From Mycoplasma mobile 163K (GTDB taxonomy: Bacteria; Bacillota_I; Bacilli_A; Mycoplasmatales; Metamycoplasmataceae): 32,000 bases of DNA. The position numbers and the translations under genes are program-made. Positions 1 to 30,053 of the stretch are shown piece by piece (the first letter of the stretch is position 1; each line of letters begins with the position of its first letter). The notes beneath the pieces are model-generated. The model made no database searches and was not told the DNA's origin. It saw only the letters and a program-made list of their open reading frames with translations. The stretch spans positions 150,001 through 182,000 of the forward strand of contig NC_006908.1 of assembly GCF_000008365.1 (NCBI RefSeq). The letters are read 5' to 3'.

Positions 1-3000
1 TCACATTGCAAAGACCACATCCAGCATGATCTAATCCTGGTTCTATTGCAAAAATTATCCCTGATGGTTTTGGTGGATTTAATATTTTAGGTTGGAATGT
101 AGATGTTGCAAAAAATGAAATTTATAACGCAAGAACCCCTTTAAATGCCGAAAATGGGCAATTGATAATGCCCGAACTTATTAATTTAATTGATGGAGGA
201 GGTTTTGGATTTTCTTATAGATATTCACAACAAATTCTTAGAACTTTTGATTCATATTTAATTAATGTTGATGGTAATGGTGAGATAAAAAACATTAATT
301 CTAATTGAGCCAATTCTTCTTTTATAAATGAAATAACAGGAGAAACCTCTCCTATTGTAAGGGAAAATCATAATTCATTAAGAGATATTGTTTATGATGG
401 TAATGGTGGTTATTATGGGATTACTGTTTCAAATACTCTAGTTCATTTAAATAATCAAGGTAATCAATTAAGTTGAAAATCAGATATTCCTAATAATGAT
501 GTAAGTTCAAATGGATACATATCAACAAGTTCATCTGATTTACAAACGATTTTAAATAATCAGCAAAATCAAGCCACTGCTTCAATATTAAGTTTGAAAA
601 ATCAATCTTTAATTTTGGCAACAAGAAATAATGTTAGAGTATTGCCATTTAATGGAACAAGCACTTCTAACTCTACTTTAAACATTGCTTTAGCCAATAA
701 TTTTATTATTGACAATATTCAAGAAGTAGATTCTAATACTTATTTACTTTCAGGAAATAATTCTTCTTCACAAAAAATTATTTATATTTTGAGATTTGGT
801 ATAGGTGGAGCACCAATTCTATCAAATCATCACATGATCGATTCAAATTCTTTAAAATCAAATGTATTAACAGGAAAAATATATCCTAATGGTCTTTTAG
901 CAATTATGGTTGCAAACAATACAAATGGAATAACATTTTTAGATTACAATTTTAATAATAATACAATAGGATTAAACCCTACTCAAAATTTCAATACAAA
1001 TATAGTTCCAACTAATGCTCAAATTGAAAATCTTGCAATTAGTCCACAAAATGAAAGTTTAGTTGTTGCTTATAGAATAAATAACAATCTTGGATTTAGA
1101 ATTTTTGGTGCTCTTTCTAGTCGTTATAGAACAAATACTCCATATTATAGTTCAACTCCTCTTAATCTTAGTGCATCATCGATCCACCTTCCTTATATTG
1201 ATATTACACCAAATGAAGCTTCAGGCATTTTTACAAATTCAGCTTTACCATTAAAATCAATAATTTCAAATACTTTTAATCGTAGTTCAGATACTTTCAA
1301 TGCTTCAGATGCCTCAAGGGGGAATACAGCTCTTATTTATTCATTAGGACAAAATATTTATAGTTTGAATTTTAATTCTCTTGGATCAGATCAATCTAAT
1401 AATGTAACTCAGTGAGGAATTCCAGTTGAAAAAGCTTTAAGTTTTACTAAATTAACTAATGCAAATTCTCTGAGAACATCTAATTCATCTACTCTTGTAA
1501 GTAGTGATTTTAGTATTTCAGCAATTGAATCAGATGGTGTAGGAGGATACATTATTGGTGGAAATAGTCCAATTTTAATGCGTTTAGGTCTTGTTAATGG
1601 TTTTTTACAATTGATTTCATATGAAAGTTATGCAGCCGAATTTAATAATTTAATTGTAAATACTATTCACTCAGATAGACAAGGGATGTTTATTGTCTCA
1701 GGCCAAAATGGTTTAGGGGCAGCAACAATACAAATAAATAGATTACTAACAAGAGGACTAATTGATATTGATAATCCTTATGGACAAACATTTACAGGAA
1801 GACCAACCGTAGCTCAAATTACAAACTTTTGAGAATCTTATAAAAATATTACTTCTGTTAATACAATAAGCAATGGTTTAGGAGTTGTTACTTTACAAAG
1901 ACATCAAGCTTACTTATTAAATAGAAAAGCTATTAAAATTCCAAAAAATACTTCTCTTTCAATTACAGATATTTTGAGATTTAAAGGAACTATTCCAAGT
2001 GTAGGGAATCAAGTAGGATTTACAATTAATGAAACAGATCTTTGAGGTGATTTAGGAAGAGATTATTATGGTAATATTGATGTTCAATATTCATTTGTAG
2101 GTTTTACAACTAATAATCAACAAAATTGAGTAACTGGATCAGATAATTTTGTTAATTTATTTAAATTAGATGCAAATTTCAGACCTCAACCCTCAGCAGG
2201 ATTTACTTTGAACGCACAGCAAATCCAAAGTTTCAGACCTCGACATTTAATGATTAGATATGTTGTTAATAATGATAGTTTAGTTCCAGGATTTTCATCT
2301 AATAATATTGCAATTAGTACAGAAGCTCTTTCAGTTAGAGGAAATTCAGAAGTAACTAGTGCTGATATGATTAAAGATTTAACTCTAAATCATATAATTT
2401 ATTTGCAATCTAACGCAACAGGAAATTTTATTGCTGATGGCAATAGTCCATTTAGACCTACAACGTCTAATTTTTGAAATTCTTTTTTCATTGGAGAGCC
2501 AAACAATACAAATATAAATTCTTTCAGATTAGTCCCTGCAGATTTAGGTAAATCTCTAAGTAATCAAAATTTGGAAATTGTTCTTCCAAGATCAATGACT
2601 GATATCCCTTCAATTCGTAATAGAGAAGTTGAAGTAAAATTTACCAATAATATAAATCCAACACCTACTTCAATATGATATACACTTGAAGAAATAAAAA
2701 ATGGTCAATTATTCATTGATTCAAACACAAAATTGTCATGATCATTTTTTACAAGACAAGGACAACGAATTACAGCAGTAGATTCAAATAATCAACTTGG
2801 AAATGGAGTTTTTGGAAATTTACAAACAACACCTCATGAGATTAATAATGAGCAAATTATTCCAATCAATATCCCTAATTCAAGTGTAAGAGATTGAAAC
2901 ATCACTTTAGGTGGAGATACTAAAAACATTACAATTATTAATTCAAATACAAATGCTCAAGTACAAGAACATTTAGAGTTACAATATGCAATTGGATCAA

Positions 3001-6000
3001 TAAATGAAAATAATGTTTTTGTTCCTAGAATTTTTAATGGAAATATTTGATTTAAAGATACAGATTTTTCAAATGCTTTAAAAAATAATTCAATCGATAT
3101 AACTCTTGGAAACAATTTTATTTATGCAAGAGTAGTTTTAAAAAATGTGCCGAATAAAACAATAGTTGTTTCAGGAAATGAGCAAATTAACACAATAAAT
3201 CAATCAGGTATTACATTTTCATTTAATACAGGGGAAAATGGGCTTCCAATTTTAAATGGAACTCAAATTTTTGATGGGCAAAATTTTACCCCAGTTTCAA
3301 ATGCAAAAGGTCTTGTAAAAATTTTCTACAATGCAACTCGTGATTTTGAAACTTTAAAATCAACAAGTGTTATAGTAGGTGGTTCTGATTCAAAAAATTT
3401 ATCAATTAATTTTGGTCAATTATCTTTAAGTTCATTAAGATCAAGTGGAATAGATGTTCAATTCTCAATCAATAATGGAACAACTTGAGAATCATATTTA
3501 GTTGAAGGACAACTTATTGATGCTTCTGTTTCTAATGATCCTACTAAAGTTTCTTTAAGATTATTTCCAAGAAATAATTTTGCTACAGAAATTAGCACTC
3601 AAGCTCTTGTAGTTAAAAATGTTCAAGCTAGAATTTTAATTAGTGGACTAAATATTAATAACTTAAGAGATGCAAACCTTGTAAATTTAAGTGGAAACAC
3701 AAGAGATTTAGCTATCAATGTTGATCAAAACGTTTATAGAGGTGCCACCGGAAATTCAACAACTCCAATTACAAATATTGTTCAGGTACGTTTTGCTATT
3801 AATGGAGTTTTAGGTGGAACATTTTTTGAAAAAGATGAATTCTTAAGAGAATTAAGAAGTTTACCTCGTTCAATTTTAAATGCAATTAGACCAGGCGATT
3901 TTAGAGTTAGTTTTATTCTTTTAAATAATGAAGATTTTTCACTAGAAGAAGGATTATCAACTCCGCAAATCCCAAATATTACGAATGTTAAGCGTTTAGT
4001 TGATTTATTTGATCATGTTAATTTAGCTAATGGTAGTTCAATTGTATCTTCAGGATCAACATCTAGATTAAGTCTTTCTAATCCGAATTCTTTACTTTCT
4101 GAAACTACATTAACTCAATTGGGAATTGTTCTTGAATACGGTTCATATAGATATAGAGCAAATGGCGATAAAATTGATGTTAATTATGTATGAGAAACAA
4201 TAATTCCAACAGCTATTAGTTCAGCTACTCCTGATAGAACAAATCAGAATTTCAATTTTGCTCCAAATATTAATTCAAATGCTTTTTCTTTGGCATTTAG
4301 ATTTAAAATAATCGATGAAAACACTACTATTATTGTCAATGGGAATAGTAATATTGTAAATCCTGGAGTAGATGGAGATTTAGGATTTTCAATTAATACA
4401 AATTCTTTAACTAAGGATATTATTTTTGGTACAACAACAACATCTAATTTTATAAACCCAAATGATTTACAAAAAATAGTTTTAACTGGAACTACATTAA
4501 ATATAAATCAACTTATTTCTCATAGTGAAAATAATCTATTAAATTCAATTATACAAACAGATATTAGAAATGTTCTAAGAGTAGAATATTCTTTTGATAG
4601 TTCAAATTTTTATGATTTTGAAACATTCAAAAAAGAAGCAAATGAACACCAAAAAAATAATGAGAATTGATCTTTAGAATATAAAAATATACTTTTACCA
4701 AACGGAACCAGAACAGATATTCAAGGTTTTGGAAATATTAAAAAGATTTTTGTAAAATTTGAAGTAAAACCAGAACATAGATCTCAATTCACAATACCTC
4801 AAAATCAATCTAGAGAAGCAAACATTTCAGGTTTAACAAATGGCACACACATTTTAGGAAATGCATTACAATCTTCATATGATATTTCTAAATGATTGAA
4901 TATTTTGAATACAACTCCAATTACAGTTGCTCCAGGTTCAACTTCTGATAATGTTTCAGGATTAGTATTACCTACTCCAATAGAAGGTTTAAGTGTTCAA
5001 GATGCAATTAACCAATTAAGTCAAAGAGGATATATTGTAGAATTTAATGCTCCAAGCGGACAAAATCCAGCTCTTTGAGTTACAAATTTAAATTTAATTA
5101 CTTCTGTAGGGAATAGTCGTATTATTCGTGTAAGAGTAGTTCCAATAGGATTTAGACAAGGTACTGCAGTTGCTGGTAATTTGACAACTGGAGAAATTTC
5201 AAATGGTTATACAAATATAATAAGACCAAATTATATAAATACAACAAATCCTTATTCATTTAATGATGGAATTGATGTAAGAGTTAGTGTACCAACAACA
5301 CTTACAATTTCCAATCCAAGTATTGCTTTATTAAATGAAATTAAACCTTCTGGAAATACAAATCAAATAATTTTAGCAAGCCAAAATAATATTGATGCAA
5401 TTAGAAATAGTCTACTAGCAAATGGGATTATTTTAAATATTCCAGGTGTAGCAAGTGGAACTGTTGAACTTCAATATGCGATTGGTAATCAAGGTGCAAC
5501 AGATTTAGGAACTGAAAGTACTCATTTAAGACAACTAACAAATTCAAGAACTTCAAGATGATATAATGCTGCTGATTTTTCAAAATTTTTAAAAGAATTT
5601 GTAAATCAAAATGCTTTAAATGCTATTTTAGGAAATAATTTGAATATTTATGTTCGTTATGGCCTAACCTCTTCTCCTGCTTTAGGAGTAGAGGGACAAA
5701 TAGAAGGTCTTTTAACAGATAATGAAAATCAATTGAATCAATTTAGAGTTCAAAATCCAAGTCCTACTTTATTAACTTCGACCACTCAAGGGTTCATTAA
5801 TGTAGATCGAATAATTTCTGATATTTCTGCTGCTAATGCACTTTCATTTAATAATGCAAATCCAAATATTCTTTCAAATTCAATTTTCAAGATTGATTTA
5901 CCTCTTTCTTTAACCGAAGAAGGAATCAATGATGTTTCACAATTTTTAAGAACTAACAACTTAGCACTTGAATTTAGTGTAGGTCAAAATGCAGGTTTAG

Positions 6001-9000
6001 ATTTTGCAGAGTGAATTAATTTAGACCAATTTAATGCTGTTCCTTCAACAACTGTAAATTTTGGGAATCCTCCTAGATTGGTTTTTAGAATTAGAAATAC
6101 AAACCCCACATCTTTTGTTATTTATTCTCAAACTTCTATGACTAATTCATTAGTTTCTGTAAATATTGAAGCAAAATTAGATAATATAAATGTGAGTTTA
6201 AATTTAAGTTCTGCAGATATTAATAGAGTTCAATTTAGTGGAACAACTTCAAATTTAGTGATTAATGATGAATCTGCAACAAGTAATTTTTATGTTGCAA
6301 ATGGAGATGTTGAGCTTCAATATTCATTAGTAAAAAGAGCAAATGGTATTGACTTAGCTTTTGCAATTCCAGGTCAAAACTCACTTTGATTAAATAAAAA
6401 TACATTTAGTAATTCTTTAGCAAGATGAATTCCTACAACTTTTAATGCAACAACAGGAATTCCAATTTTAGATAATGTATTTACATTAAATTTAAACTAC
6501 AATGCAGCTAATTTCCAAGAAGATACTTTCAAAATAGTTGCAAGATATGTAATCACAACTCAAGGATTGACAAAAAGATTAAGTTTCACTCCTGATTTTA
6601 GAAATCCAACTAGATTAAACGAATCAAATATAGTTAATATAAATATTTCTAATTGATCAACAGTTAAAACTATAATTAATTTAAGTTCTTTAGTAAATTA
6701 TTTATCAAGACAAAATACAATTATTAATTTTGGGAATTCAATTGATTCTTCAAATATTACAAGTATTATTTTACCTGATCCTTTAAACCAAAATCCTAGC
6801 TCAATCACAAGTAGAACCTTAGTAAGATTCTTAACTAATAATGGCTTTGAAATTAAGTATGCATTTGGTAATAATGCTAATCTAGTTATTGCAAATTACA
6901 CTACTAATTGAAATTCCAATTTTCAAGCAAATCCAATTTCTTTATTAAGAACTAATGGAACTTCTGTTTTAGGGATTTTATTGAATTCGACAAATAGTAA
7001 TTTTGAAATTATTAATTCTGCTAATAATCCTACAACCACCCCAATTCTTAAAGAAGGTAATTCAATTAATATTCCTACTTTAATTAATCTTCCAAATTTA
7101 GAAATAGAAGCTTCAAGAATCATTTTTAATGCAAATGATTCACAACCACTAAGCTCTAGATTTTTAACAATTGATGATTCAAGTCTATTAGGATTAATTA
7201 GAAATAATGATAATTTTCCAAACAATGAACAAGTAATATTAGAATACTCAAATGGGTCATCATTATTACCAAATAGTTCAGAAATTTGATTCTCAAAAGA
7301 AAACTTTATTAGAAATCTTGCCCAAAACAGACCATCTTCTTTAATAACACCAAATAGAATTTTTGTAAGGTATGGTTTAATCGATAGAACTTCAAATAGT
7401 TTTAGAGTACCAACTTTTAATTCTCGTTTAACAATTGATCCAAATTCAGATTTAATTGATGGAGTATTTATTCCTAATTCAACCAATTTAAAAAGTCATG
7501 TTGATTTATCTATTCAATTAAGTGCTTTAACATCAGGAACTAGAGGAGGAGCAATTACTTTTCCAAATGGAGCAACAACAGCACGTTTAGGAAATGCTAC
7601 TTTAACTGGAGATATTAGTTTTGGAGGAATAATTTCACCTCTGTCTGCTTTAGGGATTCAATTGCAATTTTCAGCAGATAATACAACTTGATTCACTTAT
7701 GACCCAAATAATTTTCAACCACAATCTTTAATCCCAAACAATACTTTGTTTGCAAGATTTAATCTTACAACTGCCAATGCAACAAATAATTTTGTTTTAT
7801 CAAGTGAAGAATTTGTTAATGTAGAAATTGCTTCAACAGTAAAACTAGCACTAATTTTAGATGCTAATTTACTAACAAATATTAATTTAAGTGGGAACAA
7901 TAAATTTATAAACATTGATGGATCAGATATTTTAAATCCAAATAGTTCTTTTAATGTTCAACTTCAAACTATATTAGACAATGCAAATTCATCTTTATTA
8001 AAATGAGGAATTCAAAATATTGGAGATTTATCAGTACAATTTTCTTCTACATTTTCAAGTAGTGCAAATTTAGGGCCAAATAATTGATTAACTAAAGAAA
8101 ATTTTATTAGAGAATTTGCAAATAATTTGGGGACTTTTACTGAAGCTCCAATTAATTTAGAAATTAGAGCTAGATATTTCTTTACAAATCCTTTAAATAT
8201 CAATTTAGCAACAGCATCATCAAATCTAGAAACAAGTATCGGGAATACTATAGTTGCTTTAACAGATTTAAGCAATCGTTCAATACGTGCAATAAATTCA
8301 AGTAGTAATATAAAAATTTTTATTAATACTAATGAATTTATTGAAGCATTAAGAAATGGACAAACAAGATTCGAACTAGGTTCAACATCTTCAAATATTA
8401 GAGGTGTTCCAATTCTTCCGAATAATTTTAACAATGAAATATTGAATCTTTTATCTTCAAGATATGGAATCATTGCTCAATTCGGAACCTCAAATTCTTC
8501 AGCTGAAATTCCTATTGTTTGATCTAATAGTTTAATTAGTTCATTACAAACAGACATAAATAATAAGCCTATTTTATGAATGCGTTTTGTAGCAGAAAAT
8601 GTAAAAGGTATTGTTCCAACTGTTGAAGAACCAATTACAACTCAAGTACATGTAGGTACTTTTGGTACACCAATTTTATTACAACCAATAATTCCTATTT
8701 CTGTCGAAACAAATAGCGCCCATTTAAGATTTGTTAGAATTACAGGGAATACAAAAAACATTAACATAAACATCAATGAAGCACTAGCGCTTGCTCCTGC
8801 TCTTTCAAGAGATAAATTAACTGTAGAATTTTCAATTGGAGGAAATCCTTCTAATATTGCAAATAATAAAGTTGTAGAATTGATTCCTGGTCAAATTTGA
8901 TACAAACATAGAGAATTTGAAGCAGCTTTAGCAAATTATCCTAAAAATATCTTACATGGTAATTTAATTTACATGAGATGAGCATTTTCTGGCAATCAAA

Positions 9001-12000
9001 ACAATGAAGGAGAACAAATTTTAGATTCAAGTTCAATTTTATATGTTCCTTCTATTGACAATGGTAATTCAAGTTTTGCAGTATTTGCAGATATTACAAA
9101 ATACTTTGAACAGCTGCAAAATATTACTTTAGGTGGAACAACTAATTCTCCATTTTTTGCAAATGTTCCATCATTACTACAAGCAAATCCTGAATTATTT
9201 GAAAATATTCCAAATGATCCAGTTGATTTCTTGTTCCCTGGCTTAGAATTAGAATTTTCTCAATTTGCAGAAGGTCCATGACAAAAAACACCTTTATCTT
9301 CAATTGTTCTTACAAATAATTATTTTGTAAGATTAGTTTCAAATAGTATAGTTAGAATTAATTATGTATTTTCTTTTTCGCCTACTTCAGATATTGTAAC
9401 ATTTACAAGTCCAGTTAAATTAGACACAACAAATGTTAAAACAATTGTAAATGTTCCTCCGGTTACACAATTACAAAATATTGCTAATATTTCATTCAGT
9501 GGCACATTAAATAATTTAATAATTACTGAGAACATTAATGAAATTAGATCATTGATTGAAAATCTAAATCCTATAAATAAAAATTTAGCAAATAACATTG
9601 TAATTCAATATTCATATTTTGAAAATCCTACAAGTAATCAATGATTCAACAAGGAAAATTTCATCAATGAATTAAGTAGATTAAAAGGAAGAGTTTCTGA
9701 AAGTGAATTCATTATTTTAAAAAGTCAAATCAAAATTAAATATGCAATTAATAATTCATCATTTATTGTTGGTATGAATGACTCGCCTATTGATGATTTG
9801 CAATCACAAACAAATATTTCTTTAATACAACAAAATAGTTTCAGTGGATTAATTAATTTAGATTCATCACCACTATCATTATTTAAAAAAGTGATATTAT
9901 CAGGAACTCACAATAATTATTCTCTAAATTTTGATGGCCTTTCTAGAGAAGCAATGAAAAGTATCTTAGATAGATATACTTCAATTTCACTTCAAACTCC
10001 TTTTAGTATTTATATTACAAATACTGCTGGAGAAGGAATCCCTTCATTTGAAGAAGGAAGATTAATTTATAGATCTAATAATCCTTTAGTTCTTGAAAAC
10101 ATAACAAATTTTCCTCTTGATTTAGGAAATACAATCCCTGAAGAATTGCCTTTATTCATTCGTTTTGTTCCGAATCCAACTAGTGCTGATGTTGCAAATA
10201 CATATAGAATTTTAAATGAAGGAAATTTATTGGATGTAAATCAAGGAATCCAATTTAGAATTAAAGTTTCTGTAGATCCAATTAATCCATTTAGAATCGA
10301 TTTAAAAAGTGTTGTAGATACAATTTTCGCAAATCAATTATCAAATTTTGCTTCTCAAATAGTTGCAAATCCAAATGAAACATTTACAATTCAAGGTAAT
10401 TCAACTTTAGCATTAACTAATGGTGGATCAATAATTAGTAATCCAAAAGAATTCTTTAATGAATTGGATTTAAATGATGCTGAATTTTTAGCATTCCAAT
10501 ATTTTGTTTCAAACTCAAGATTAAGCCCTCAAGAAATTGCTAATTTAAGATTAAGCACTTCAAGTTCATTTTTTACTCAAGAAATTCCTTCAAATTTAAA
10601 ATCAGGTCAATTTGTTTATATAAGAGTAGGAATTGATCAAAATAATCCAAAAGCAAATTCTTTAGAAGTTTCAAATTCATCTATTATTACTGAAGTCTTA
10701 GTTACAAATTTAGCAATTGACTTAGTAAGATCTCCATTAAATTGAGATTTTGTAGATTTTGAAAATGTTACAGGAACTATTCCGTTTAGCGGGACATCAT
10801 TTATAAATAATTTAATATTAAATGTTGATCAAAATGAAAACTTTAGAGGTGTTGGAATAAGAATTTTTAACAATTTTACTTATTTAACAAATACAGGACA
10901 AGAAGTAATTTTTACAAATTCAAATCCACCAACACAAGATGTTTTAAATACATTGTTGAAAATCAATGGAGCTTTTGTTGTAAAAACTCAAATCGGAATC
11001 CCTTCTAATGGTGACAAAGAATTAAAACTCATTAATGATCAAGGATCAGAAGCAGGAATTACTTATTGAGTAAATTCTCAAGGTGTGCCACTTCCTCCAT
11101 TGCAAAGAGCAATTAATGTAAATGAAGATTTATTTTTCCAACTTACAAGAAATCCAGATGGTCAAATTAGTTTTGCTCAAAATAGATCATTGGCAAATTT
11201 TGAACTATTTAATATTTATGCAGAAGCAACTATTTCATATCAATTTATAGCTTTAGATGGATTTAGTGGCTTTATTAATACTGAAAATACAACAATTTTA
11301 GATCTTTTATCTCAAATTCAAGAATTCAAAGTTCCAAGCGGTGAAATTAAAAATCAAATAAATGGAATTTCACAATTCGAAGTTTTAATGCCTCAAATTG
11401 TTCATAGCACATCTCCTTTAAATTTACCTCCTATTAGTGGAATTTCAACTTTTGCAAATTTAGTTGTTAATAGAAATGGTGTGCAAATAGACTCGAATAA
11501 TTTAATTAATAATTTATCTCAAAATCTTTTAAGCATTGAAATAATTCTTACAAAAACAATAAATGGAGAACAAAAACAAACAATTTTTAGTGTCCAAAAT
11601 GGAAGAATTGATTTTCCAACAAATCTTGAAAATGGTGATTTAGTAACAATTCAAATAATCCCATTGAATTCAAATTTCTTTGCTATTAGTTATTTAGAAA
11701 AACCTAATTTAAGAGAAACTTTCACAATTTCAGGTCTTGAAGTTGATCCAGGATTAGAAGCATTTAAATTCTTAAGAACTGGTTTCAACATCAATAACAA
11801 TTCTCCTGTAAGTGGAAGAGGAAGTTTTGAAGTTTTATCAAATGATCCTCAAGATCCATTCAATGCTCTTAAAGATCCTGTTAATAGAAATTCAAATTTA
11901 CAATGAAATTATTCAATTTTTAGACCAAAAGCTAATCAAGATGGAACTTTTGGTCCTGAATATGAAGTTATTAGTTTCGAAAGAAATGAAAAACCGATTT

Positions 12001-12665
12001 CATTAAAAAATGGAGATATTGTTCAATGAATACTTGCTTTAAAGAACAATGAAAATGGCGGAATTATTACAACAACATATAATAATGCTATTGCAAGTCC
12101 TTTTGGAACTCCTCAAGTTTCAAAATTAAGAATAGATAAACCAGGCCTATTTTTTACAAGATTAATAAATGGAGTCCCAAGAAGAATTGATTTAACTGAA
12201 GGATTTTTAGTTTCAGGATTAAAAGAATCTTTAAGTATTCCTAATGATTTTAATTTAAATGCTATTTCAATTTCTTTTATAGGACAAAATCAAATAGGAT
12301 CTTTTGAAGCAAATACATCTAATTTAAATATTCCAGAAAAAACAATTATTACGTATTTCAAAAGAGGCGAAAATGGAGAAGAAATTCAAATTTTCCCAAA
12401 TTCAACATCTACTAATTTATCAAATGGAGAAACTATTATAATTAGATTGCAATTAGATCCACAATTTAATAATGATTTTGCTTTAGATGTACCTTCAGGA
12501 GCAATTATTGAAATAAATCAAATTGTTTCAGGTTTAATTGAACAATCAAATCCTGGAGCACAAATTGCAATTATTACAGCAGCTTCAGTTGCAACAATTC
12601 TTACTCTAGGTTTAGGTGTTTTATCACTAATAATTATTAGAAGAAGAAAATTAAAAGGAAAATAA
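1..12665 (+). CDS. gli521: Giant surface protein, 5'-partial (4,220 codons in window), Gli521-type gliding-machinery protein with C-terminal membrane anchor
   Basis: All 16 large + strand fragments from 594 to 12665 are in the same frame (start divisible by 3). Each fragment ends at TGA. Hand translation of 3-600 and 6387-6981 shows only TGA interruptions. TAA stop at 12663-12665. The only hydrophobic helix sits at the extreme C-terminus. Size and synteny with a 356-aa downstream gene match my recollection of M. mobile gli521-p42. Confidence 0.8.
2043..9690 (+). repeat. Protein-level tandem array of about 19-20 divergent modules (about 120-180 aa each) inside the giant ORF
   Basis: The recurring order is phi-[SGT]-G-[NT]-T-x-x-phi-x-I (e.g. 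LSGNTRDLAINV, ITGNTKNININI, FSGTTSNLVIND), then phi-[EQ]-[YF]-[SA] (VELQYA, VELQYS, LRVEYS, LALEFS, LTVEFS, IDVQFS), then a UGA-encoded Trp. The Trp is often followed by [FYL]-x-K-E-N-F-I (WFSKENFIRNL at 7287, WLTKENFIREF at 8085, WFNKENFINEL at 9642). Confidence 0.65.
12564..12638 (+). other. C-terminal transmembrane anchor of the giant protein, followed by the basic tail RRRKLKGK
   Basis: IAIITAASVATILTLGLGVLSLIII is an uninterrupted hydrophobic stretch. It is followed by 8 mostly basic residues and then the stop codon. Confidence 0.8.
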
Positions 12666-12668
12666 AAT

Positions 12669-13739
12669 ATGACAAAAAATTGAAATTTCGAAAATAAGGA
12701 AAATTATTATCCAAATATTGTTCTTTTTCATTTAGGTGATGATGAAACTTTACAAGCTTATGACTTAGATGCAGAAATAAAAGAATATATTAAATATTCA
12801 AGAATTGGTTCAAACAATACTGATGAAGCTTTAATGCAAAAAGGAATAAATGAACTTTTTTTAACATGATTAAAAAAAGATAAAAAAGTTTTAAATTCAA
12901 AAAAGTTTTTTAAACTTAATTCAGATAAACTAAAAGATTACTTGAAAGAAGTTGATATTTCAATTATTATTTCAAAATCCAATGACATTGCTCAAATAAA
13001 TTATTTGACGGCTTTAAATCAATTTATTTTTAAACCTTTAGATATCTTAAGTTTTAATTTTGTATTGAGGACTTCTAATCATAGTAAAAAATCTGAAAAA
13101 GTCCTTAACAGTTCAATAAAACTTTTAAAAAAGCAAACTAGATCTCAAATGATTATTATTGAGGAAAGAGACATTTTAGCATCATTTCAAAATCTGAAAA
13201 TTAGTAATTTAAAAGAATTTATTTCAAAAAATTTCATTAAACTTGTAGATTCTTTAATAAGCCCATTTTTAAGAGTAGTAGAGAATCCTTATTTATTTAA
13301 AAAGTTAAAATATCAAATTTTCACAAATGAAATAAATTCAAATCTTATTTTATCATCTCTAGCAATAAGTAGAAAAACAGAAAACAGGTTAGAGGATTCA
13401 TTAAGAAAAGTTCTTATAAACCCAATCTTTAAATCATCTTTTGAATATTCAAAATTGTTATTAGTTAACATTAAAGGTATTTTTTTAGAAGATAAACATA
13501 AAGAAAAAATTGAAAATAGATTAAAAGAAATTTTAGGGCATGAAAAAGAAATTATTGTAACTTATTTCGATGATAGATATGCAATGGATAGATACACTCA
13601 AATTTCTATTTTTGCATTTTTTGTTGAAAAAACAGGACATACCAACAAAACCACTCAATTGCAAAATAATTTGCTAAATTCTAAAGAAGAATATCAAACA
13701 ATTGTTAATAACTTGACAGAAGAAATTCTTCTAAGATAA
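12669..13739 (+). CDS. p42: P42-like protein (356 aa) translationally coupled to the giant gene; C-terminal half resembles the FtsZ C-terminal domain
   Basis: ATG at 12669 lies 3 nt after the upstream TAA. Two in-frame TGA codons (12681, 12867) join it to track ORF 12942-13739. Its size and position match P42 of the M. mobile gliding operon (from memory). YSKLLLVNIKG...IIVTYFDD...ISIFAFFVE resembles FtsZ G(A)xGVLVNItGG...IIxGxxxD...vtViATG. Confidence 0.7.
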
Positions 13740-13769
13740 AAAAAGTGATAGTTATCTATCACTTTTTTT
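13740..13769. terminator. Bidirectional rho-independent terminator between p42 and the convergent minus-strand cassette
   Basis: Perfect 11-bp stem aaaagtgatag (13741-13751) / ctatcactttt (13756-13766) with loop ttat. It is flanked by an A-run on one side and a T-run on the other. The stop codon of the minus-strand 90-aa ORF lies in the loop. Confidence 0.75.
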
Positions 13770-14024
13770 ATTAAATTTAAAATGCTCATTATAATTATTC
13801 ACAAAATTTTCAAATAAATTGTAAATATTTATGTAAACATTGTCTTCTATTTCGACATTTTTTTCTTTTATTTCGAGATATTTATCACCATTCATTTTTG
13901 TGATTTTAACTAAGAAATTTATGATTTCTTCTTCATTTAATATATCGTCCTTACCTATTTCTATGCTTTCAGACAAATATTTTATGGTATAAATATCTTT
14001 ATTATTTATTAATATTTCTAACAT
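13752..14024 (-). CDS. Small acidic cytoplasmic protein (90 aa), last gene of the 2-TM cassette, unknown function
   Basis: Intact ORF with a strong SD (GAAGGAGAATT-ATG on the minus strand at 14025-14038). No TM segment. Glu/Asp/Asn/Ile rich. Confidence 0.6.
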   Translation of the reverse strand: MLEILINNKDIYTIKYLSESIEIGKDDILNEEEIINFLVKITKMNGDKYLEIKEKNVEIEDNVYINIYNLFENFVNNYNEHFKFNKKSDR

Positions 14025-14078
14025 AATTCTCCTTCAAATTTAAATAACTTAAAAAAAGAATTTTTGTAAAAACTATTA

Positions 14079-14537
14079 TTATTTCCGAATTGCTTCATCA
14101 ATTTTTTCGAATAATTTTAAAAATTGAATATCATCTTTTGCATATTTAGTTTGTGACTTTTTAAATTCGTCCATTTCTTCATTGATCATTTTTATTCTAT
14201 CATTTAAATCTTTATGAAGGTTTTTAAATTCAAAAAAAGCATTCAAACTACTAAAAAATGCAATTGAACCTGTTATAAAGGCAATTGCTATGAAAAAAGG
14301 TCTTGATAACTGATTATTATTAAGTCTAATTGCAAACAAATTTAGTACAACTAACATAGAACTAATTGCAAAAATAGCAATATTTAAAGTTAGAAAAATA
14401 CCATAGCCAACAACATATCTTTTTTTAAAAGTTTTGTATTGCTCTTTTATTTGATTAATTAATTCTTTTCTTGAATATTGACCAATGTCATTTGTTAAAA
14501 AATTTCTAAATTCTTCTTCTTTTTTTCTATGTCTCAT
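14079..14537 (-). CDS. 2-TM membrane protein, SLATT/DUF4231-like, paralog 3 of 3 (152 aa)
   Basis: Basic N-terminal helix (QIKEQYKTFKKRY), two TM helices (VVGYGIFLTLNIAIFAISSMLVVLNLFAI; PFFIAIAFITGSIAFFSSLNAFF), then a charged helical tail (FKNLHKDLNDRIKMINEEMDEFKKSQTKY). Its ATG lies 1 nt after the upstream stop. Confidence 0.7.
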   Translation of the reverse strand: MRHRKKEEEFRNFLTNDIGQYSRKELINQIKEQYKTFKKRYVVGYGIFLTLNIAIFAISSMLVVLNLFAIRLNNNQLSRPFFIAIAFITGSIAFFSSLNAFFEFKNLHKDLNDRIKMINEEMDEFKKSQTKYAKDDIQFLKLFEKIDEAIRK

Positions 14538-14538
14538 T

Positions 14539-15051
14539 TTATATTTCCTTATTAATTTTTATGATTTCTAAAGATTTTTCATATTCTCTTAATCTATTTG
14601 CTTGTTCAAGGATCAAACATACAGTTTCAAATAAAATAATTTCATTTTCTTTAGTATTTTTTGTATATTTACCTGCTCTTAATTCAAATTCCATTTTTTC
14701 AAATTTTAATTGCTTATGAATTTTTCAATTTTTTTTATATGTATCTTTTACAACAAAAAAATTGACAATGCTTGATAAAAATGCACTAACACTAGAAATT
14801 ATTGAGTTTGTAAAAACAAACACATTACTTGGTCCTCCTGCAGGATCTTGGAATGCTAATTTAGCAATATTTAATGTACTTATAATTACAACATTAAATG
14901 TCAATGCAATTATAATAAAATTCAACAAGTAATATAAAAATCTAAAAGAAGAGTAGATTCGAAAGGTTTTGCTTATGTATTTTTTAGTAAATGACCTTAC
15001 ATCTTCTTTTGAAGATAAAATTTTTGATTCTTTATTAGATTGATTAATCAT
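14539..15051 (-). CDS. 2-TM membrane protein, SLATT/DUF4231-like, paralog 2 of 3 (170 aa from ATG 15051; alternative ATGs at 15057 and 15072)
   Basis: Track ORF 14725-15072 ends at TGA. Hand translation continues ...KKNWKIHKQLKFEKMEFELRAGKYTKNTKENEIILFETVCLILEQANRLREYEKSLEIIKINKEI to TAA at 14539-14541. GAGGA lies 5 nt upstream of ATG 15051. Two TM helices are present. Confidence 0.65.
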
Positions 15052-15592
15052 CTTCATCCTCTGAACTTTCATTAATAAAAATCGATTTTAAAACTTTCAA
15101 TGTTTTTGCATTTTTTGGTTTTTTCAAATATATATCATTAATATTTTCAAGTAAAATAGTAATTTTTTCGTAATTATAATTTTCAATATCCATTTTAGAT
15201 TTTATTAAAAGATATTCCAATTCTTGATAAGCTTTTTTAAATTTTTGAAATCTAGATTTAGATTTATAAATTGCTAATACAGTTAACAATATAAATAGAA
15301 AAATTGTAAAAAATACAACTAATGCCGATAAAATAAGTTCCAAACTATTTCCAATATTTGAATCATTTAGAATTACCCCTAATGTAAAAGATGCAAGACC
15401 AAGCAAAACAATGTTTAATAAAAAAATTAGCGTTGAAGTTAAAATCCAAATCAAATGGTTAGCTTTTGATTTAAAATTCAAATTATTTAAGAAAATATCT
15501 ACTTGGTTTTGAATTTTATAAAATTTTTCCTCATTAGAGTCAAGTAAAATAGTCCTTATTATGTTTTTGTTTTTACTAGATTTATCTTTCAT
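15044..15592 (-). CDS. 2-TM membrane protein, SLATT/DUF4231-like, paralog 1 of 3 (182 aa), acidic C-terminal tail SSEDEDD
   Basis: Intact ORF, with an upstream in-frame TAA at 15608-15610. TM helices are LIWILTSTLIFLLNIVLLGLASFTLGVIL and LELILSALVVFFTIFLFILLTVLAIY. The post-TM segment is KSKSRFQKFKKAYQELEYLL. Confidence 0.7.
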   Translation of the reverse strand: MKDKSSKNKNIIRTILLDSNEEKFYKIQNQVDIFLNNLNFKSKANHLIWILTSTLIFLLNIVLLGLASFTLGVILNDSNIGNSLELILSALVVFFTIFLFILLTVLAIYKSKSRFQKFKKAYQELEYLLIKSKMDIENYNYEKITILLENINDIYLKKPKNAKTLKVLKSIFINESSEDEDD

Positions 15593-15682
15593 ATATAATC
15601 AATTATTTTACCAAATTTAAAAGTTTTATTAAATATAAAAAATCAAATTTCATATTCTTAAAAATTAATATTTAAATTAATA

Positions 15683-16924: not shown

Positions 16925-17917
16925 ATGAAAGAAAAACGTGATGAAATTTTATTAAAAATAATAGATTTATATATAAAAAGTGGGCAACCTGTTAGTAGCA
17001 AACAATTGATTTCAGAATATAAATTAGCTGTTTCTAGTGCAACAATAAGAAATATCATGGCAGATTTAGAAAATGAAGGTTTTTTGGAAAAAACTCATAC
17101 TTCTAGTGGCAGAATTCCTTCTATTTCTGGATATAAATTTTTTGCTGAACATTCTAAATCAAAAACCAATGAACTACTAGAAAGTAAATTAAAAGAAATT
17201 TTTTCAAAAAGATATCTTTCGATAGACGTTACTCTTGATGAAGCTGCAAAAGCAATTAATGAAATAATAGGACTTACCTTGGTTACATCTTCAAATGTAA
17301 ATACAGAAGTATTAAAATCAATTCAACTTATAGAATTAAACAATTATTCAGCAACAATAATTCTTGTTACATCAACTGGTCAAGTTGCAAATAAAACAAT
17401 TGATTTAACTAATTTCCAAGACATAAAATTAGAAGATGTAAGAATAGCAATTAGATTATTTAAAGAAAGACTTATTAACACATCTTTAATTAACTTAAGA
17501 GAAAAAGCTCTTGCTTTGAAACCTATTTTGTCTAAATACATTAAAAATTACGAGACAATTTTGCAATCCTTTATTGGAAATGTTTTTGAATTTGAAAACA
17601 AAAACCATGTTTATGGGAAATCAAATATAATAAAACAAGAAGGAATCGATCGATTACATTTAACTCAAATTTTAGATTTAATTGAAAATAATAGTATTTG
17701 AAATATGATAGAAAGCAAAGTAGAAGAAGATGAAACTTTAAAAATTGATGTTAGAAATAGCAACATAAGTTTGATTTCCAAAAAAATTTTTGTTAATAAT
17801 ACTACAAAAGAAATTTCAGTAATTGGTTCAAATAGAATGGATTATATAAGCGCTAAATCTGCTATAGCTCTTTTGGAAAGTTTCATAAAACCAAAATTTT
17901 CTAAAAAAAACAATTAA
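16925..17917 (+). CDS. hrcA: Heat-inducible transcription repressor HrcA (330 aa)
   Basis: The N-terminal winged-helix segment LLKIIDLYIKSGQPVSSKQLI...SSATIRNIMADLENEGFLEKTHTSSGRIPS is classic HrcA. One in-frame TGA (17699) joins the two track fragments. Confidence 0.9.
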
Positions 17918-18853: not shown

Positions 18854-18880
18854 TTAGCACTTTTTTATATAGAGTGCTAA
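18854..18880 (+). promoter_or_regulatory. CIRCE operator (HrcA binding site)
   Basis: TTAGCACTT-N9-GAGTGCTAA compared with the consensus TTAGCACTC-N9-GAGTGCTAA, a single mismatch. Confidence 0.9.
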
Positions 18881-20841: not shown

Positions 20842-22458
20842 ATGAAAAAAAATATACAAATTTTACAAAAGAAAATCGGTTTTTGATCTGCTTTAGCTGT
20901 TCTTGTGGGTTCAGTAGTCGGAATAGGAATTTTCTTTAGAAATGGTTCTGTTGCAACAGCAGTTGAATATAATGGAGTAGGATGATTACTTGCTTGAATT
21001 TTAGGAGCGATTATTGCTTTGTTTACAGCAATTTCTTATAGTGAAATTGGCTCTATAATTTCAAAAAAAAGATTTTCAGGTCTTTCGTATTGGGCTACAA
21101 AATTTGGAGGAAGTAAATTTGGTTATTTTGTAAGGTTTAATTTTTCTTTTTTTAACTTGCCTATTATTATTGTAGTTTTAGGTTTTTTTATAAGTGAATT
21201 CTTTTTTTTATTTTTATCTTGATCAGGAGTACCGGGTATAAGTTTAACTTCTAATCCGAATGCTTTAACAACACCTATTTACATTCACGTTTTATTCGGT
21301 ACTTTTTTATCTATTTTGTACATTGTAATTAATAAAATTTCTTTAAAAATTGTTGCAATTCATCAAAATATTGTTACAGTATTGAAATTTGCTCCAATTA
21401 TTTTAGCAATAATTATAGGTTTAGTTTTTGCAAATAAAGCTGGAAATAGTTTTCCTACAAATCCTTCTGAAGCAGGAAATGCTTTCCAAAATTCTAATTT
21501 TAATTTTGGAAATGTCTTGAAATCTTTACCATCTGTTTTATTTGCTTTTGATGCTTTTTTAATTGTTGGATCTCTTTCGAATAAAGTAAAAGGAGGATCA
21601 AAAACAATTTCAAAAGTAGTTATAATTGGAATGATCTTTTCAGCGATTATTTATATTTTACTAACAATAGCTTCAATTTTACATAATGCAAAAAGCATAG
21701 GAGATTTAATTACTAGTGCTATTTCAAATGATGCTGCAAAAGCAATAAATATCTTTTTATTTTTGTTTATTTTTATTTCAGGAATTGGTGTAGTGAATGG
21801 AATAACTTCAGCCTATGTTACTGAAATGGAAAACGGTTCTTATTTGCAAACTTGATTTGGAGCTAAATTTTTAGTTAAAAAAATTGGAAATTATTGAACA
21901 GGAGTGGCATTTACGGCTATATCTTATGTTTTTTGATGATTAATTTTTGTAATACCTGCTTTGATAATGAATTCAGATGAATTATTTGATGCAGCAACTA
22001 ATTTTGTAACAATATTTTTCTTTGGAATTTATGCAATAATAGTTCTACTTTATCTTTTAAAAAGAAAAGAATATGATTCGACTAAAAAAGTTAATAAATA
22101 TTTATTTTACATTGCTTCATGAACTTCAATTATAGGAATTACAATTACTGTTTTCGCACAATATGTTGTAGGAATTCAAGATGCAATTGAACTTGGTTCT
22201 AATTCTGCAGGTTTAGGTGTTTTTGTTAAAACCAATTCCATTAAGAACATTGATTATATAATTATGAATTTTATTTTTTTATCTATTTTTTTTCTTCTAC
22301 CAACAATAAATTTTTTCTTAATAAAATTTTTTGAAAAAAGAAATGCTTTTATAATACAAAAAGAAGAATTTGAAAATTCAGAAATTTTTATTGCAAATAA
22401 TGAAGAAAATAATCAGCTAAAAAGTAAGAAAAAATTCTTTTTTATTAAAAATAAATAA
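20842..22458 (+). CDS. APC-superfamily amino acid permease, paralog 1 (538 aa)
   Basis: Polytopic membrane protein with the N-terminal motif VGSVVGIGIFF. Four track fragments in one frame are joined by TGA codons, including a tandem TGA-TGA at 21934-21939. Confidence 0.7.
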
Positions 22459-29976: not shown

Positions 29977-30053
29977 TGGGGCGTATGACGGGGTTCGAAC
30001 CCGCGCATGACGGTTCCACAAACCGCTGTGTTAACCGCTTCACCACATACGCC
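29977..30053 (-). tRNA. tRNA-His (anticodon GUG) with genomically encoded G-1 and 3' CCA
   Basis: The cloverleaf was folded by hand. The acceptor stem is GCGTATG/CATACGC, with G-1:C73 and an encoded CCA. The anticodon loop is TTGTGGA (anticodon = + strand cac 30017-30019). The T-arm is GCGGG-TTCGAAC-CCCGT. Confidence 0.9.

What the first reader, a model, noticed from the sequence alone, without database searches (positions are those of the whole stretch)
2043..9690. Giant protein is built from about 19-20 divergent tandem modules whose conserved Trp is UGA-encoded
Nine track fragments end in the same way. Each has a beta-strand-like phi-[EQ]-[YF]-[SA] motif, then 6-30 residues, then TGA. The cases are IDVQFS..3486, LRVEYS..4668, IVEFNA..5076, VELQYA..5559, LALEFS..6012, VELQYS..6387, VILEYS..7287, IIAQFG..8520 and LTVEFS..8898. 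Further copies by hand translation are at TGA 2127, 2676, 3048, 4191, 6909, 7689, 8085, 9279 and 9642. Spacing is about 360-550 nt. Each module also carries an upstream [SGT]-G-[NT]-T-x-x-phi-x-I motif. Many carry W-[FYL]-x-K-E-N-F-I-x-x-L directly after the Trp, with almost the same DNA at 7287, 8085 and 9642. So the standard-code stop pattern is effectively a ruler of the domain repeat. I do not know whether this module has been defined for Gli521. Repeats have been described for Gli349, from memory.
Basis: seen in the sequence. Interest (0 to 1): 0.65.

Follow-up and report, generated by a model that had tools for sequence, protein, structure and literature searches.

The report
Alternating repeat modules in Gli521

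Summary
The + strand ORF at nt 3-12665 (UGA=Trp) is the C-terminal 4220 aa of M. mobile 163K Gli521 (100% identity to a 4727-aa protein; NCBIfam glide_Gli521, 6047 bits). All 18 cited TGAs are in frame. The strand-then-Trp motif occurs 16 times, against 0.28 expected.

The repeat is not 19-20 equal modules. It is about 10 super-repeats of about 278 aa, each made of an A module and a B module.
- A: SGNTxNIxI .. VQYS .. W-F-x-K-E-N-F-x-x-x-L .. IYVRY
- B: G-[ST]-T-S-x-N .. GIxLxFS .. W .. phi-phi-R

The array covers nt about 1947-10250 (Gli521 aa 1156-3923), so it runs through most of the published rod, the hinge and half of the hook. In held-out HMM tests, 8 of 10 A modules and 5-6 of 10 B modules are individually significant. 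A and B are weakly but collinearly homologous (hhalign P 2e-4 to 1e-3).

UGA coding is trivial: 44 TGA against 4 TGG in the neighbouring genes. The modules are unrelated to the Gli349 / lipoprotein-17 repeats. They have no Pfam or PDB match.

An Ig-like fold was not shown. The AlphaFold models were poor (pLDDT about 52) and suggest a mixed alpha/beta fold. No orthologues could be retrieved. I rate this a modestly interesting, apparently undescribed domain architecture of a known protein.

The parts
3..12665 (+). gli521 ORF, 5'-truncated by the window. It encodes the C-terminal 4220 aa of the 4727-aa Gli521 (window aa = Gli521 aa - 507).
   Evidence: Open under table 4. 100% identical to P0001, 4727 aa, on a 777,079-bp contig. 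NCBIfam NF045860 glide_Gli521, 6047 bits against a cutoff of 2200.
1947..10250 (+). Whole repeat array: 10 super-repeats (A+B), mean period 278 aa / 835 nt. Corresponds to Gli521 aa 1156-3923.
   Evidence: No further A or B module was found elsewhere in Gli521.
1947..2267 (+). Module A0 (aa 649-755), consensus Trp W709 = TGA 2127
   Evidence: Held-out HMM 3.6 bits, borderline: 7 decoy hits in 200 decoy proteins. Motifs align.
2376..2843 (+). Module B0 (aa 792-947), W892 = TGA 2676
   Evidence: Motifs align. Held-out HMM not significant.
2877..3140 (+). Module A1 (aa 959-1046), W1016 = TGA 3048
   Evidence: Held-out 22.3 bits, 0 decoy hits.
3300..3620 (+). Module B1 (aa 1100-1206), W1162 = TGA 3486. 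Asp-box-like 'FSINNGTTW'.
   Evidence: Held-out 22.2 bits, 0 decoy hits. Sub-threshold Reelin_subrepeat-B, CHB_HEX_C and BNR hits.
3657..3920 (+). Module A2 (aa 1219-1306), with Phe1274 (TTT, nt 3822) in place of the Trp.
   Evidence: Held-out 13.0 bits, 0 decoy hits..
3984..4454 (+). Module B2 (aa 1328-1484), W1397 = TGA 4191
   Evidence: Motifs align. Held-out not significant.
4455..4766 (+). Module A3 (aa 1485-1588). W1556 = TGA 4668 aligns with the Phe of 'ENF', not with the consensus Trp column.
   Evidence: Held-out 5.9 bits, borderline: 2 decoy hits. Alignments.
4878..5252 (+). Module B3 (aa 1626-1750), W1692 = TGA 5076
   Evidence: Held-out 12.0 bits, 0 decoy hits.
5313..5666 (+). Module A4 (aa 1771-1888), W1853 = TGA 5559
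   Evidence: Held-out 30.4 bits.
5772..6197 (+). Module B4 (aa 1924-2065), W2004 = TGA 6012
   Evidence: Held-out 7.5 bits, 1 decoy hit.
6198..6554 (+). Module A5 (aa 2066-2184), W2129 = TGA 6387
   Evidence: Held-out 31.6 bits.
6657..7106 (+). Module B5 (aa 2219-2368), W2303 = TGA 6909
   Evidence: Held-out 9.8 bits, 0 decoy hits.
7110..7379 (+). Module A6 (aa 2370-2459), W2429 = TGA 7287, 'WFSKENFIRNL'
   Evidence: Held-out 23.8 bits.
7485..7865 (+). Module B6 (aa 2495-2621), W2563 = TGA 7689, 'FSADNTTW'. The published rod/hinge boundary (Gli521 aa 3035) falls inside it.
   Evidence: Held-out 27.0 bits. Domain map from PMC7052211.
7860..8183 (+). Module A7 (aa 2620-2727), W2695 = TGA 8085. 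It carries an insertion of about 25 aa and is followed by an extra A-like fragment (aa 2741-2793, nt 8223-8381).
   Evidence: Held-out 18.4 bits. Fragment seen.
8295..8690 (+). Module B7 (aa 2765-2896), W2840 = TGA 8520
   Evidence: Held-out 28.7 bits.
8703..8987 (+). Module A8 (aa 2901-2995), W2966 = TGA 8898
   Evidence: Held-out 22.5 bits.
9060..9446 (+). Module B8 (aa 3020-3148), W3093 = TGA 9279
   Evidence: Motifs align. Held-out not significant. Sub-threshold CHB_HEX_C hit.
9465..9749 (+). Module A9 (aa 3155-3249), W3214 = TGA 9642
   Evidence: Held-out 24.2 bits.
9852..10250 (+). Putative degenerate module B9 (aa 3284-3416), with no Trp.
   Evidence: Aligns in the super-repeat alignment. 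Held-out 1.4 bits, not significant.
12564..12638 (+). C-terminal transmembrane segment of Gli521 (aa 4188-4212), followed by RRRKLKGK
   Evidence: Sequence read. A TM at the C-terminus is described in PMC7052211.

Best explanation
The ORF is gli521 of Mycoplasma (Mesomycoplasma) mobile 163K. Gli521 is the surface 'crank' protein. It is anchored by a C-terminal transmembrane segment and is thought to pass force from the internal F1-ATPase-like motor to the leg protein Gli349.

Gli521 aa about 1156-3923 are a chain of about 20 small modules arranged as about 10 tandem A+B super-repeats of about 278 aa. Both module types share four elements:
- a first strand, (S/G)-G-x-T-x-N-phi-x-phi
- a helix-like connector ending in Gly
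- a central strand, phi-x-phi-[EQ]-[YF]-S
- a loop with a buried Trp, then a last strand, phi-phi-phi-R-phi

Type A has an extra amphipathic helix (F-x-K-E-N-F-x-x-x-L) straight after the Trp.

The most likely history is an ancient module duplication that gave an A-B pair, followed by tandem amplification of the pair and long divergence. No DNA-level repeat is left.

Inferred function: the modules are structural beads that build the stiff arm of about 100-120 nm (rod plus the proximal hook). The Trp, the aromatic residue and the Arg would be fold-determining core residues. That the Trp codons are UGA reflects only the Mycoplasma genetic code and AT-biased codon usage.

Shown: identity, repeat architecture, A/B alternation, lack of relation to the Gli349 repeats. 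Inferred: fold, evolutionary history, mechanical role.
For: Identity:
- 100% match to a 4727-aa protein.
- NF045860 glide_Gli521, 6047 bits.
- Published mutation sites P1461 and E1670 map to P954 and E1163 of the window protein.
- Gene order is gli123-gli349-gli521-gli42.

Repeat:
- The motif occurs 16 times against 0.28 expected.
- A de novo iterated HMM finds 9-10 A copies spaced 250-310 aa apart.
- The super-repeat alignment is in register.
- Held-out HMMs: 8/10 A modules score 13-32 bits, and 5/10 B modules score 10-29 bits with no decoy hit in 200 locally shuffled decoys.

A/B homology:
- hhalign P=2.4e-4 over the whole module, with motif order kept. Reversed controls gave P about 0.7.
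- P=1e-3 to 1.4e-3 in local mode.
- 1 of 150 column permutations reached the real score.
- A 27-nt patch 'NITLGG(D/T)T' is shared by A1 and B8.

Secondary structure: two independent AF2 runs gave the same strand-helix-strand-W-(helix)-strand order, at low confidence.

Size: Gli521 is described as a rod of about 120 nm, or a triskelion with 100-nm arms. 20 modules of 4-5 nm each would fit; the module size is my assumption.

Codon usage: 44 TGA against 4 TGG in the neighbouring genes.
Against: - Four B modules (B0, B2, B8, B9) and two A modules (A0, A3) are not, or only marginally, significant when held out.
- A/B homology rests on P about 1e-3 to 2e-4 and an empirical p of about 0.01.
- Both AF2 models are poor (mean pLDDT 51.6 and 52.0). 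Neither the fold nor whether A and B are separate domains is established.
- No orthologue could be retrieved, so conservation of the architecture in other species is untested.
- The published proteolytic domain map places the rod/hook hinge (Gli521 aa 3035-3244) inside the array. The array therefore does not coincide with one morphological part.
Confidence: 0.72

Rival explanations
1. One reading: 19-20 equivalent Ig-like/FN3-like beta-sandwich modules strung head to tail, as in many giant bacterial adhesins.
For: - The B-module profile hits one PDB chain, TEN-D3 (3b83, a redesigned tenascin FN3), over nearly the whole domain at E=0.0057.
- Sub-threshold Pfam hits to CHB_HEX_C in two B modules, and to Reelin_subrepeat-B, BNR and Big_3_5.
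- 'L-x-P-N-x-T-phi-x-phi-R-phi' resembles the FN3 F-strand motif.
Against: - hhalign of the B profile against natural FN3 sequences (typed in from memory) gives P=0.37, and only 0.058 when TEN-D3 is added.
- No Pfam Ig/FN3 family reaches its cutoff in any of the 20 modules.
- AF2 predicts helices between the strands in both module types.
- Foldseek has no hit at E<=0.001.
- The modules clearly fall into two alternating types.
Confidence: 0.12
2. The true structural unit is one domain of about 278 aa, with A and B packing together as two halves, repeated about 10 times. It would not be 20 independent beads.
For: - Strict A-B alternation with a steady period of 250-310 aa.
- The linkers between A and B are not obviously more flexible than those between B and the next A.
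- The AF2 pTM of 0.38-0.46 does not resolve the packing.
Against: - A and B look like homologous, self-contained units of 90-130 aa with the same motif order.
- An isolated extra A-like fragment follows A7.
- There are no data on inter-module contacts.
Confidence: 0.2
3. The recurring motifs are a by-product of the extreme Asn/Ile/Thr-rich composition and are not real domain repeats.
For: - Pairwise similarities are very weak: the best is 19.5 bits and most are under 9.
- Some modules fail the held-out tests.
Against: - Composition-preserving shuffles give 0.28 motif matches against 16 observed.
- The maximum decoy HMM score is 5-10 bits, against 13-32 bits for held-out modules.
- Reversed and permuted profile controls fail.
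Confidence: 0.02
4. The modules are divergent copies of the repeat of about 100 aa (lipoprotein-17-like) known from Gli349, Gli123 and the Mvsp surface proteins.
For: - Same operon, same organism.
- Both are repeats of about 100 aa in giant surface proteins.
Against: - The A and B HMMs score below decoys on Gli349.
- The Gli349 repeat profile (23 copies recovered with the same method) against A and B gives hhalign P=0.54 and 0.67.
- No Lipoprotein_17 hit in any module even at E<=10.
- No Pfam hit is on record for the Gli521 product, whereas Gli349 and Gli123 list PF04200.
Confidence: 0.03

Closest known systems
Gli521 (MMOB1040) of Mycoplasma mobile, as described in the literature: oval (aa 44-715), rod (889-3035), hook (3244-4560) and TM, defined by limited proteolysis and EM
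   Same: It is this very protein (100% identity). It has the C-terminal TM, and the gene lies between gli349 and gli42.
   Different: The papers I could read annotate repeats only for Gli349 and describe Gli521 by proteolytic and morphological parts. The A+B array found here (aa 1156-3923) cuts across the rod, the hinge and the first half of the hook.
Gli349 / Gli123 / Mvsp repeats of about 100 aa (Pfam PF04200, Lipoprotein_17)
   Same: Tandem repeats of about 100 aa that build long surface molecules of the same gliding machinery. They are thought to set length and flexibility.
   Different: No detectable sequence relationship. The Gli349 repeats are much better conserved: a simple iterated HMM recovers 23 copies at 21-72 bits. 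They have a single type of unit, not an alternating pair.
Tandem Ig-like/FN3/CHB_HEX_C-type beta-sandwich rods of giant bacterial surface proteins
   Same: Beads-on-a-string architecture. Each module has a central 'phi-x-phi-x-[YF]-S/T' strand, a conserved aromatic residue and a late 'phi-x-phi-R-phi' strand. Marginal profile hits.
   Different: No family reaches significance. Predicted helices lie within the modules. Two module types alternate. The fold is not established.
BNR/Asp-box hairpin (S-x-D-x-G-x-T-W)
   Same: B1 'FSINNGTTW' and B6 'FSADNTTW' look like Asp-boxes: a strand, a tight turn, then Trp.
   Different: Seen in only two of 20 modules. Pfam BNR E=0.15. In the other modules 6-30 residues separate the strand from the Trp.

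Membership tests
Gli521 (NCBIfam NF045860, glide_Gli521) | Full-length match to the family HMM above the curated cutoff (2200 bits) | tested here: met
   6047 bits, aa 2-4725 against model positions 1-4534. The window ORF is identical to the last 4220 aa.
Gli521 (literature definition) | 4727 aa, a C-terminal transmembrane segment, and a gene placed gli123-gli349-gli521-gli42 | tested here: met
   P0001 is 4727 aa. TM at window aa 4188-4212. Neighbours are products of 3183 aa (with Lipoprotein_17 and LRR_5 hits) and 356 aa. Published description in PMC7052211.
Lipoprotein_17 repeat (PF04200; Gli349, Gli123, Mvsp) | A match to the PF04200 profile, or profile-profile similarity to the Gli349 repeats | tested here: not met
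   No PF04200 hit at E<=10 in any of the 20 modules. hhalign P=0.54 and 0.67. A and B HMM scores on Gli349 fall below decoys.
FN3 / Ig-like / CHB_HEX_C beta-sandwich domains | A significant profile match to a family model | tested here: not met
   The best Pfam hits are below their cutoffs: CHB_HEX_C 13-22 bits against 23.6, Big_3_5 14.5 against 35.5. There is one PDB hit, TEN-D3, at E=0.0057. Natural FN3 gives P=0.37.
FN3 / Ig-like / CHB_HEX_C beta-sandwich domains | A two-sheet beta-sandwich fold of 7-9 strands | tested here: inconclusive
   AF2 pLDDT 51.6 and 52.0, with mixed helix and strand. Foldseek against the PDB has no hit at E<=0.001.
BNR/Asp-box repeat (PF02012) | The S-x-D-x-G-x-T-W hairpin recurring in each unit | tested here: not met
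   An approximate motif occurs only in B1 and B6. Pfam BNR E=0.15 in B1 only.
Internal tandem protein repeat (generic) | Copies align in register, and held-out copies score above composition-matched decoys | tested here: met
   Thirteen modules have no decoy hit at or above their held-out score, three are borderline and four are not significant alone.
Conservation of the array in Gli521 orthologues (M. pulmonis, M. agassizii, M. testudineum) | The same alternating A/B pattern in orthologues | not testable with these tools
   Orthologues are reported in PMC7052211. None was returned.

The most novel reading that the evidence does not exclude
The A and B modules are a previously unrecognised alpha/beta domain family specific to the M. 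mobile-type gliding machinery. On this reading the rod and the proximal hook of Gli521 are one continuous chain of about 10 A-B units, each contributing roughly 9-10 nm. The 'hinge' would be the one irregular unit, SR7, with its insertion and extra A fragment. The arm length, and through it the 70-nm step, would then be set by the number of super-repeats and could be changed by in-frame deletion or duplication of units.
Probability: 0.3. Interest if true: 0.55.

Novelty: new member of a known kind. Interest (0 to 1): 0.4.

Why it matters
Gli521 is essential for one of the few bacterial motility systems whose force-transmission path is still structurally unresolved. At 4727 aa it is hard to work with experimentally.

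A residue-level module map would help in four ways:
- It gives rational boundaries for recombinant fragments and for fitting into cryo-EM or tomography density.
- It predicts a periodicity of about 9-10 nm along the arm.
- It shows that the proteolytic rod/hook division does not follow the sequence architecture.
- It suggests lever-length experiments by deleting or adding super-repeats.

It also shows that Gli521 and Gli349, although neighbours and partners, were built from unrelated repeat units. The UGA observation itself has no biological significance beyond confirming the Mycoplasma code.

Tried and rejected
1. Orthologues. None of these returned a relative:
- The search for homologous proteins with 2750 aa, which found only the protein itself
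- the super-repeat alignment
- the N-terminal 1120 aa; searches did not even return the protein itself, so they are tool-limited. The full-length query failed
- exhaustive phmmer of 1200 aa against 1.84 billion representatives, which found only itself
- a DNA pattern for W-F-x-K-E-N-F-I in genome contigs, which gave 120 loci. None scored with the A or B HMMs after six-frame table-4 translation

2. Structure. There were two AF2 jobs, using the paralogous super-repeats as the alignment. Both had low confidence, and the Foldseek results were meaningless.

3. Known families. Pfam was run on the whole protein and on each of the 20 modules. PDB sequence and profile searches were run. Only sub-threshold hints came back. 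The TEN-D3/FN3 hint did not survive a test with natural FN3 sequences.

4. Relation to the Gli349 repeats: rejected.

5. DNA-level repeats: none beyond 36-nt motif patches.

6. A second, C-terminal 'L-x-N-G-[DE]-phi-phi-x-phi' motif (aa about 3877, 4003, 4141) could not be supported as a repeat by iterated HMM.

7. The Gli521 primary papers (PMC1112018, PMC2812451) are not held. I therefore cannot exclude that they mention internal repeats.

Full report
**What the sequence is**

The window has about 26% G+C. Read with UGA as Trp, frame 3 of the + strand is open from nt 3 to 12665. It gives 4220 codons, runs off the 5' end, and holds 37 in-frame TGA and one TGG. This translation is identical to the last 4220 residues of a 4727-aa database protein carried on a 777,079-bp contig. 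That protein matches NCBIfam NF045860, 'gliding machinery surface structure protein Gli521', at 6047 bits against a cutoff of 2200.

Window residue n corresponds to Gli521 residue n+507. The published mutation sites P1461 and E1670 (PMC7052211) fall on P954 and E1163 of the window protein. The neighbouring genes fit too. Upstream is a 3183-aa product with Lipoprotein_17 and LRR hits (Gli349). Downstream is a 356-aa product (Gli42), then hrcA, grpE and dnaK. The organism is Mycoplasma (Mesomycoplasma) mobile 163K.

**Checking the observation**

All 18 listed TGAs are in-frame Trp codons, and the nine quoted motifs are present. The region 2043-9690 holds 28 TGAs, so ten are not module Trp.

A regular expression for phi-x-phi-[EQK]-[YF]-[SAGTN], then 3-32 residues, then W matches 16 times in aa 641-3260. 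In 1000 shuffles the mean was 0.28 and the maximum 3.

Pairwise self-comparison is weak but above noise. The best pair scores 19.5 bits and about ten pairs exceed the shuffle maximum of 5 bits.

At DNA level there is no tandem repeat. There are only patches of 36 nt or less at the conserved motifs. The three 'almost identical' stretches after TGA 7287, 8085 and 9642 are about 74-85% identical, by my count from the sequences. This is what amino-acid conservation plus strong codon bias would give.

**The real architecture**

An HMM iterated from a single segment (aa 925-1060) did not pick up every module. Seeds taken from the intervening segments found only their own kind. Aligning ten consecutive segments of about 278 aa puts two sets of motifs in register:
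- Type A: phi-x-phi-S-G-N-T-x-N-phi-x-I, a helix-like connector, phi-x-V-Q-Y-S, a variable loop, W-[FYL]-x-K-E-N-F-x-x-x-L, then I-Y-V-R-Y.
- Type B: G-[ST]-T-S-x-N-phi, a connector ending L-x-x-x-G, phi-x-L-x-F-S, a loop, W, then phi-phi-phi-R-phi.

Module coordinates come and are listed under 'parts'. The array runs from window aa 649 to 3416 (nt 1947-10250; Gli521 aa 1156-3923). The mean period is 278 aa. No further A or B module is detectable elsewhere in the protein.

**Non-circular significance**

Each super-repeat was left out in turn. An HMM was built from the other nine and used to score the held-out copy, against 200 decoys of the whole protein shuffled within 40-aa windows.
- A modules: eight of ten scored 13-32 bits with no decoy hit. 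A3 and A0 were borderline.
- B modules: five of ten scored 10-29 bits with no decoy hit, and B4 had one. B0, B2, B8 and B9 were not significant alone. The first three still carry the short strand-Trp-strand motif in register.

So about 13-16 modules are individually supported and about 20 are supported by the joint alignment.

Three details correct the 'TGA ruler':
- Module A2 has Phe (TTT at nt 3822) instead of Trp. This explains the single 705-nt gap.
- The Trp at TGA 4668 (A3) aligns with the Phe of 'ENF', seven residues after the consensus Trp column.
- B9 has no Trp.

**Are A and B the same kind of module?**

Profile-profile comparison aligns A to B over the whole module with the motifs in the same order (GNT strand, EYS strand, W, R strand). 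P was 2.4e-4, and reversed controls gave P about 0.7. Local mode gave P of 1e-3 to 1.4e-3. One of 150 column-permuted controls reached the real score. A1 and B8 even share a 27-nt patch encoding NITLGG(D/T)T.

I take A and B as probable ancient paralogues. The unit that was amplified is the A-B pair.

**The UGA point**

In the 16 other ORFs of the window, Trp is TGA 44 times and TGG 4 times. UGA-coded Trp is the norm here. That a conserved Trp appears as a 'stop' in the standard code says nothing about the protein.

**Relation to known families**

Pfam has no hit above cutoff for the whole protein or for any of the 20 modules. Recurrent sub-threshold hints occur in B modules only: CHB_HEX_C in B1 and B8, and Reelin_subrepeat-B and BNR in B1.

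PDB sequence and profile searches gave one marginal hit. The B profile matched TEN-D3, a computationally redesigned tenascin FN3 domain, at E=0.0057 over 86 of its 100 residues. When I compared the B profile with natural FN3 sequences (typed in from memory), the signal vanished: P=0.37, and 0.058 with TEN-D3 added. I regard it as a composition and beta-pattern resemblance.

Two AlphaFold2 runs used the ten paralogous super-repeats as the alignment. Their mean pLDDT was 51.6 and 52.0. Foldseek then returned nothing at E<=0.001. Both models agree on a strand-helix-strand-Trp-(helix in A)-strand order. This matches the amphipathic patterns visible in the sequence, for example SLLGLIRNN and KENFIRNLAQ. 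It argues, weakly, for a mixed alpha/beta module rather than an all-beta Ig-like one. The fold remains open.

**Relation to the Gli349 repeats**

I recovered gli349 from the same contig. With the same iterated-HMM method it yields 23 copies of its known repeat of about 100 aa, at 21-72 bits. This serves as a positive control, and it shows how much more divergent the Gli521 repeats are.

The Gli521 A and B HMMs score below decoys on Gli349. The Gli349 repeat profile compared with A and B gives P=0.54 and 0.67. The two partner proteins were built from unrelated repeat units.

**Literature**

PMC7052211 gives the Gli521 domain map: oval 44-715, rod 889-3035, hook 3244-4560, then the TM. It annotates repeats A-V only for Gli349. 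The Gli123 preprint finds lipoprotein-17 repeats in the Mvsps, Gli349 and Gli123, and does not list Gli521. Searches for Gli521 with 'repeat', 'AlphaFold' or 'triskelion', and all Gli521 papers since 2023, turned up no description of internal repeats. The two primary Gli521 papers are not held, so an earlier mention cannot be excluded.

On the published map the array covers most of the rod, the protease-sensitive hinge and about half of the hook. The hinge corresponds to B6 and A7, next to the one irregular unit, which carries an insertion and an extra A-like fragment.

**How it probably works (inference)**

Gli521 is described as a rather rigid rod of about 120 nm, or a triskelion with 100-nm arms, that transmits motor force to Gli349. 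Twenty modules of 90-150 aa at 4-5 nm each would span about 90 nm; the module size is my assumption. This would be consistent with the modules being the beads of that arm. The nearly invariant Gly, Trp and Arg and the alternating hydrophobic strands are most simply read as fold-determining residues. Nothing here suggests a catalytic or binding role.

**Limits**

No orthologue could be retrieved with any tool. Conservation across species, a deep alignment and a confident structure are therefore all missing.

**Verdict**

- This is an apparently undescribed repeat architecture in a known protein. It is useful to specialists in Mycoplasma gliding and of moderate general interest.

Noticed in passing
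window 18854-18880 (+): A near-perfect CIRCE heat-shock operator (TTAGCACTT-N9-GAGTGCTAA, 1 mismatch) lies between grpE (ends at about 18850) and dnaK (starts at about 18947), downstream of hrcA (16925-17917). About 0.01 such matches are expected by chance.
   Followed up: partly
window 12669-13739 (+): A 356-aa ORF starts 4 nt after the gli521 stop codon. By position it is Gli42/P42 of the gliding operon. It has no Pfam hit above cutoff.
   Followed up: partly
window 13740-15680 (- strand): Four small minus-strand genes in tandem (products of 90, 152, 170 and 182 aa, called on the matching contig). The stretch translates to hydrophobic membrane-protein-like sequence, and one product has a DUF4231 hit. 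They sit between the gliding operon and the hrcA-grpE-dnaK cluster.
   Followed up: no
window 20842-22458 and 22491-23990 (+): Two adjacent paralogous multi-pass membrane permease-like genes with shared N-terminal motifs (e.g. GIGIFF, GLSYWA). This looks like a tandem duplication.
   Followed up: no
window 29980-30052 (-): One tRNA gene (Rfam RF00005, 60.7 bits). It is the only Rfam hit at gathering threshold in the window.
   Followed up: no
window aa 1-650 of Gli521 (nt 3-1950), and the 507 aa upstream that lie outside the window: The N-terminal part carries recurring D-x-x-G-G-[YF]-phi-phi-G motifs (DRRGGYFIFG, DGNGGYYGIT, DGVGGYIIGG, DGFGGFNILG) and faint Pfam beta-propeller hints (E 0.08-0.39). 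The 'oval' domain may be propeller-like.
   Followed up: no
window nt about 11630-12530 (aa about 3877, 4003, 4141): Three copies of an L-x-N-G-[DE]-phi-phi-x-phi-x-phi motif, about 125 aa apart, lie near the C-terminus. They suggest a second, different repeat. Iterated HMM searches did not support it.
   Followed up: partly
Gli521 aa 1457-2656 (window nt about 2850-6450): An exhaustive phmmer search of 1.84 billion representative proteins found no relative at E<=0.001 other than the protein itself, although orthologues in three other Mycoplasma species are published. Either they are missing from the library or this region is extremely divergent.
   Followed up: partly
window nt 2862-2864 (aa 954; Gli521 P1461): The gliding-mutant site P1461L is reported as fully conserved in four species. 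It lies in the short linker 'EQIIPINIPNSS' between module B0 and module A1, so it is an inter-module junction rather than a module core.
   Followed up: no
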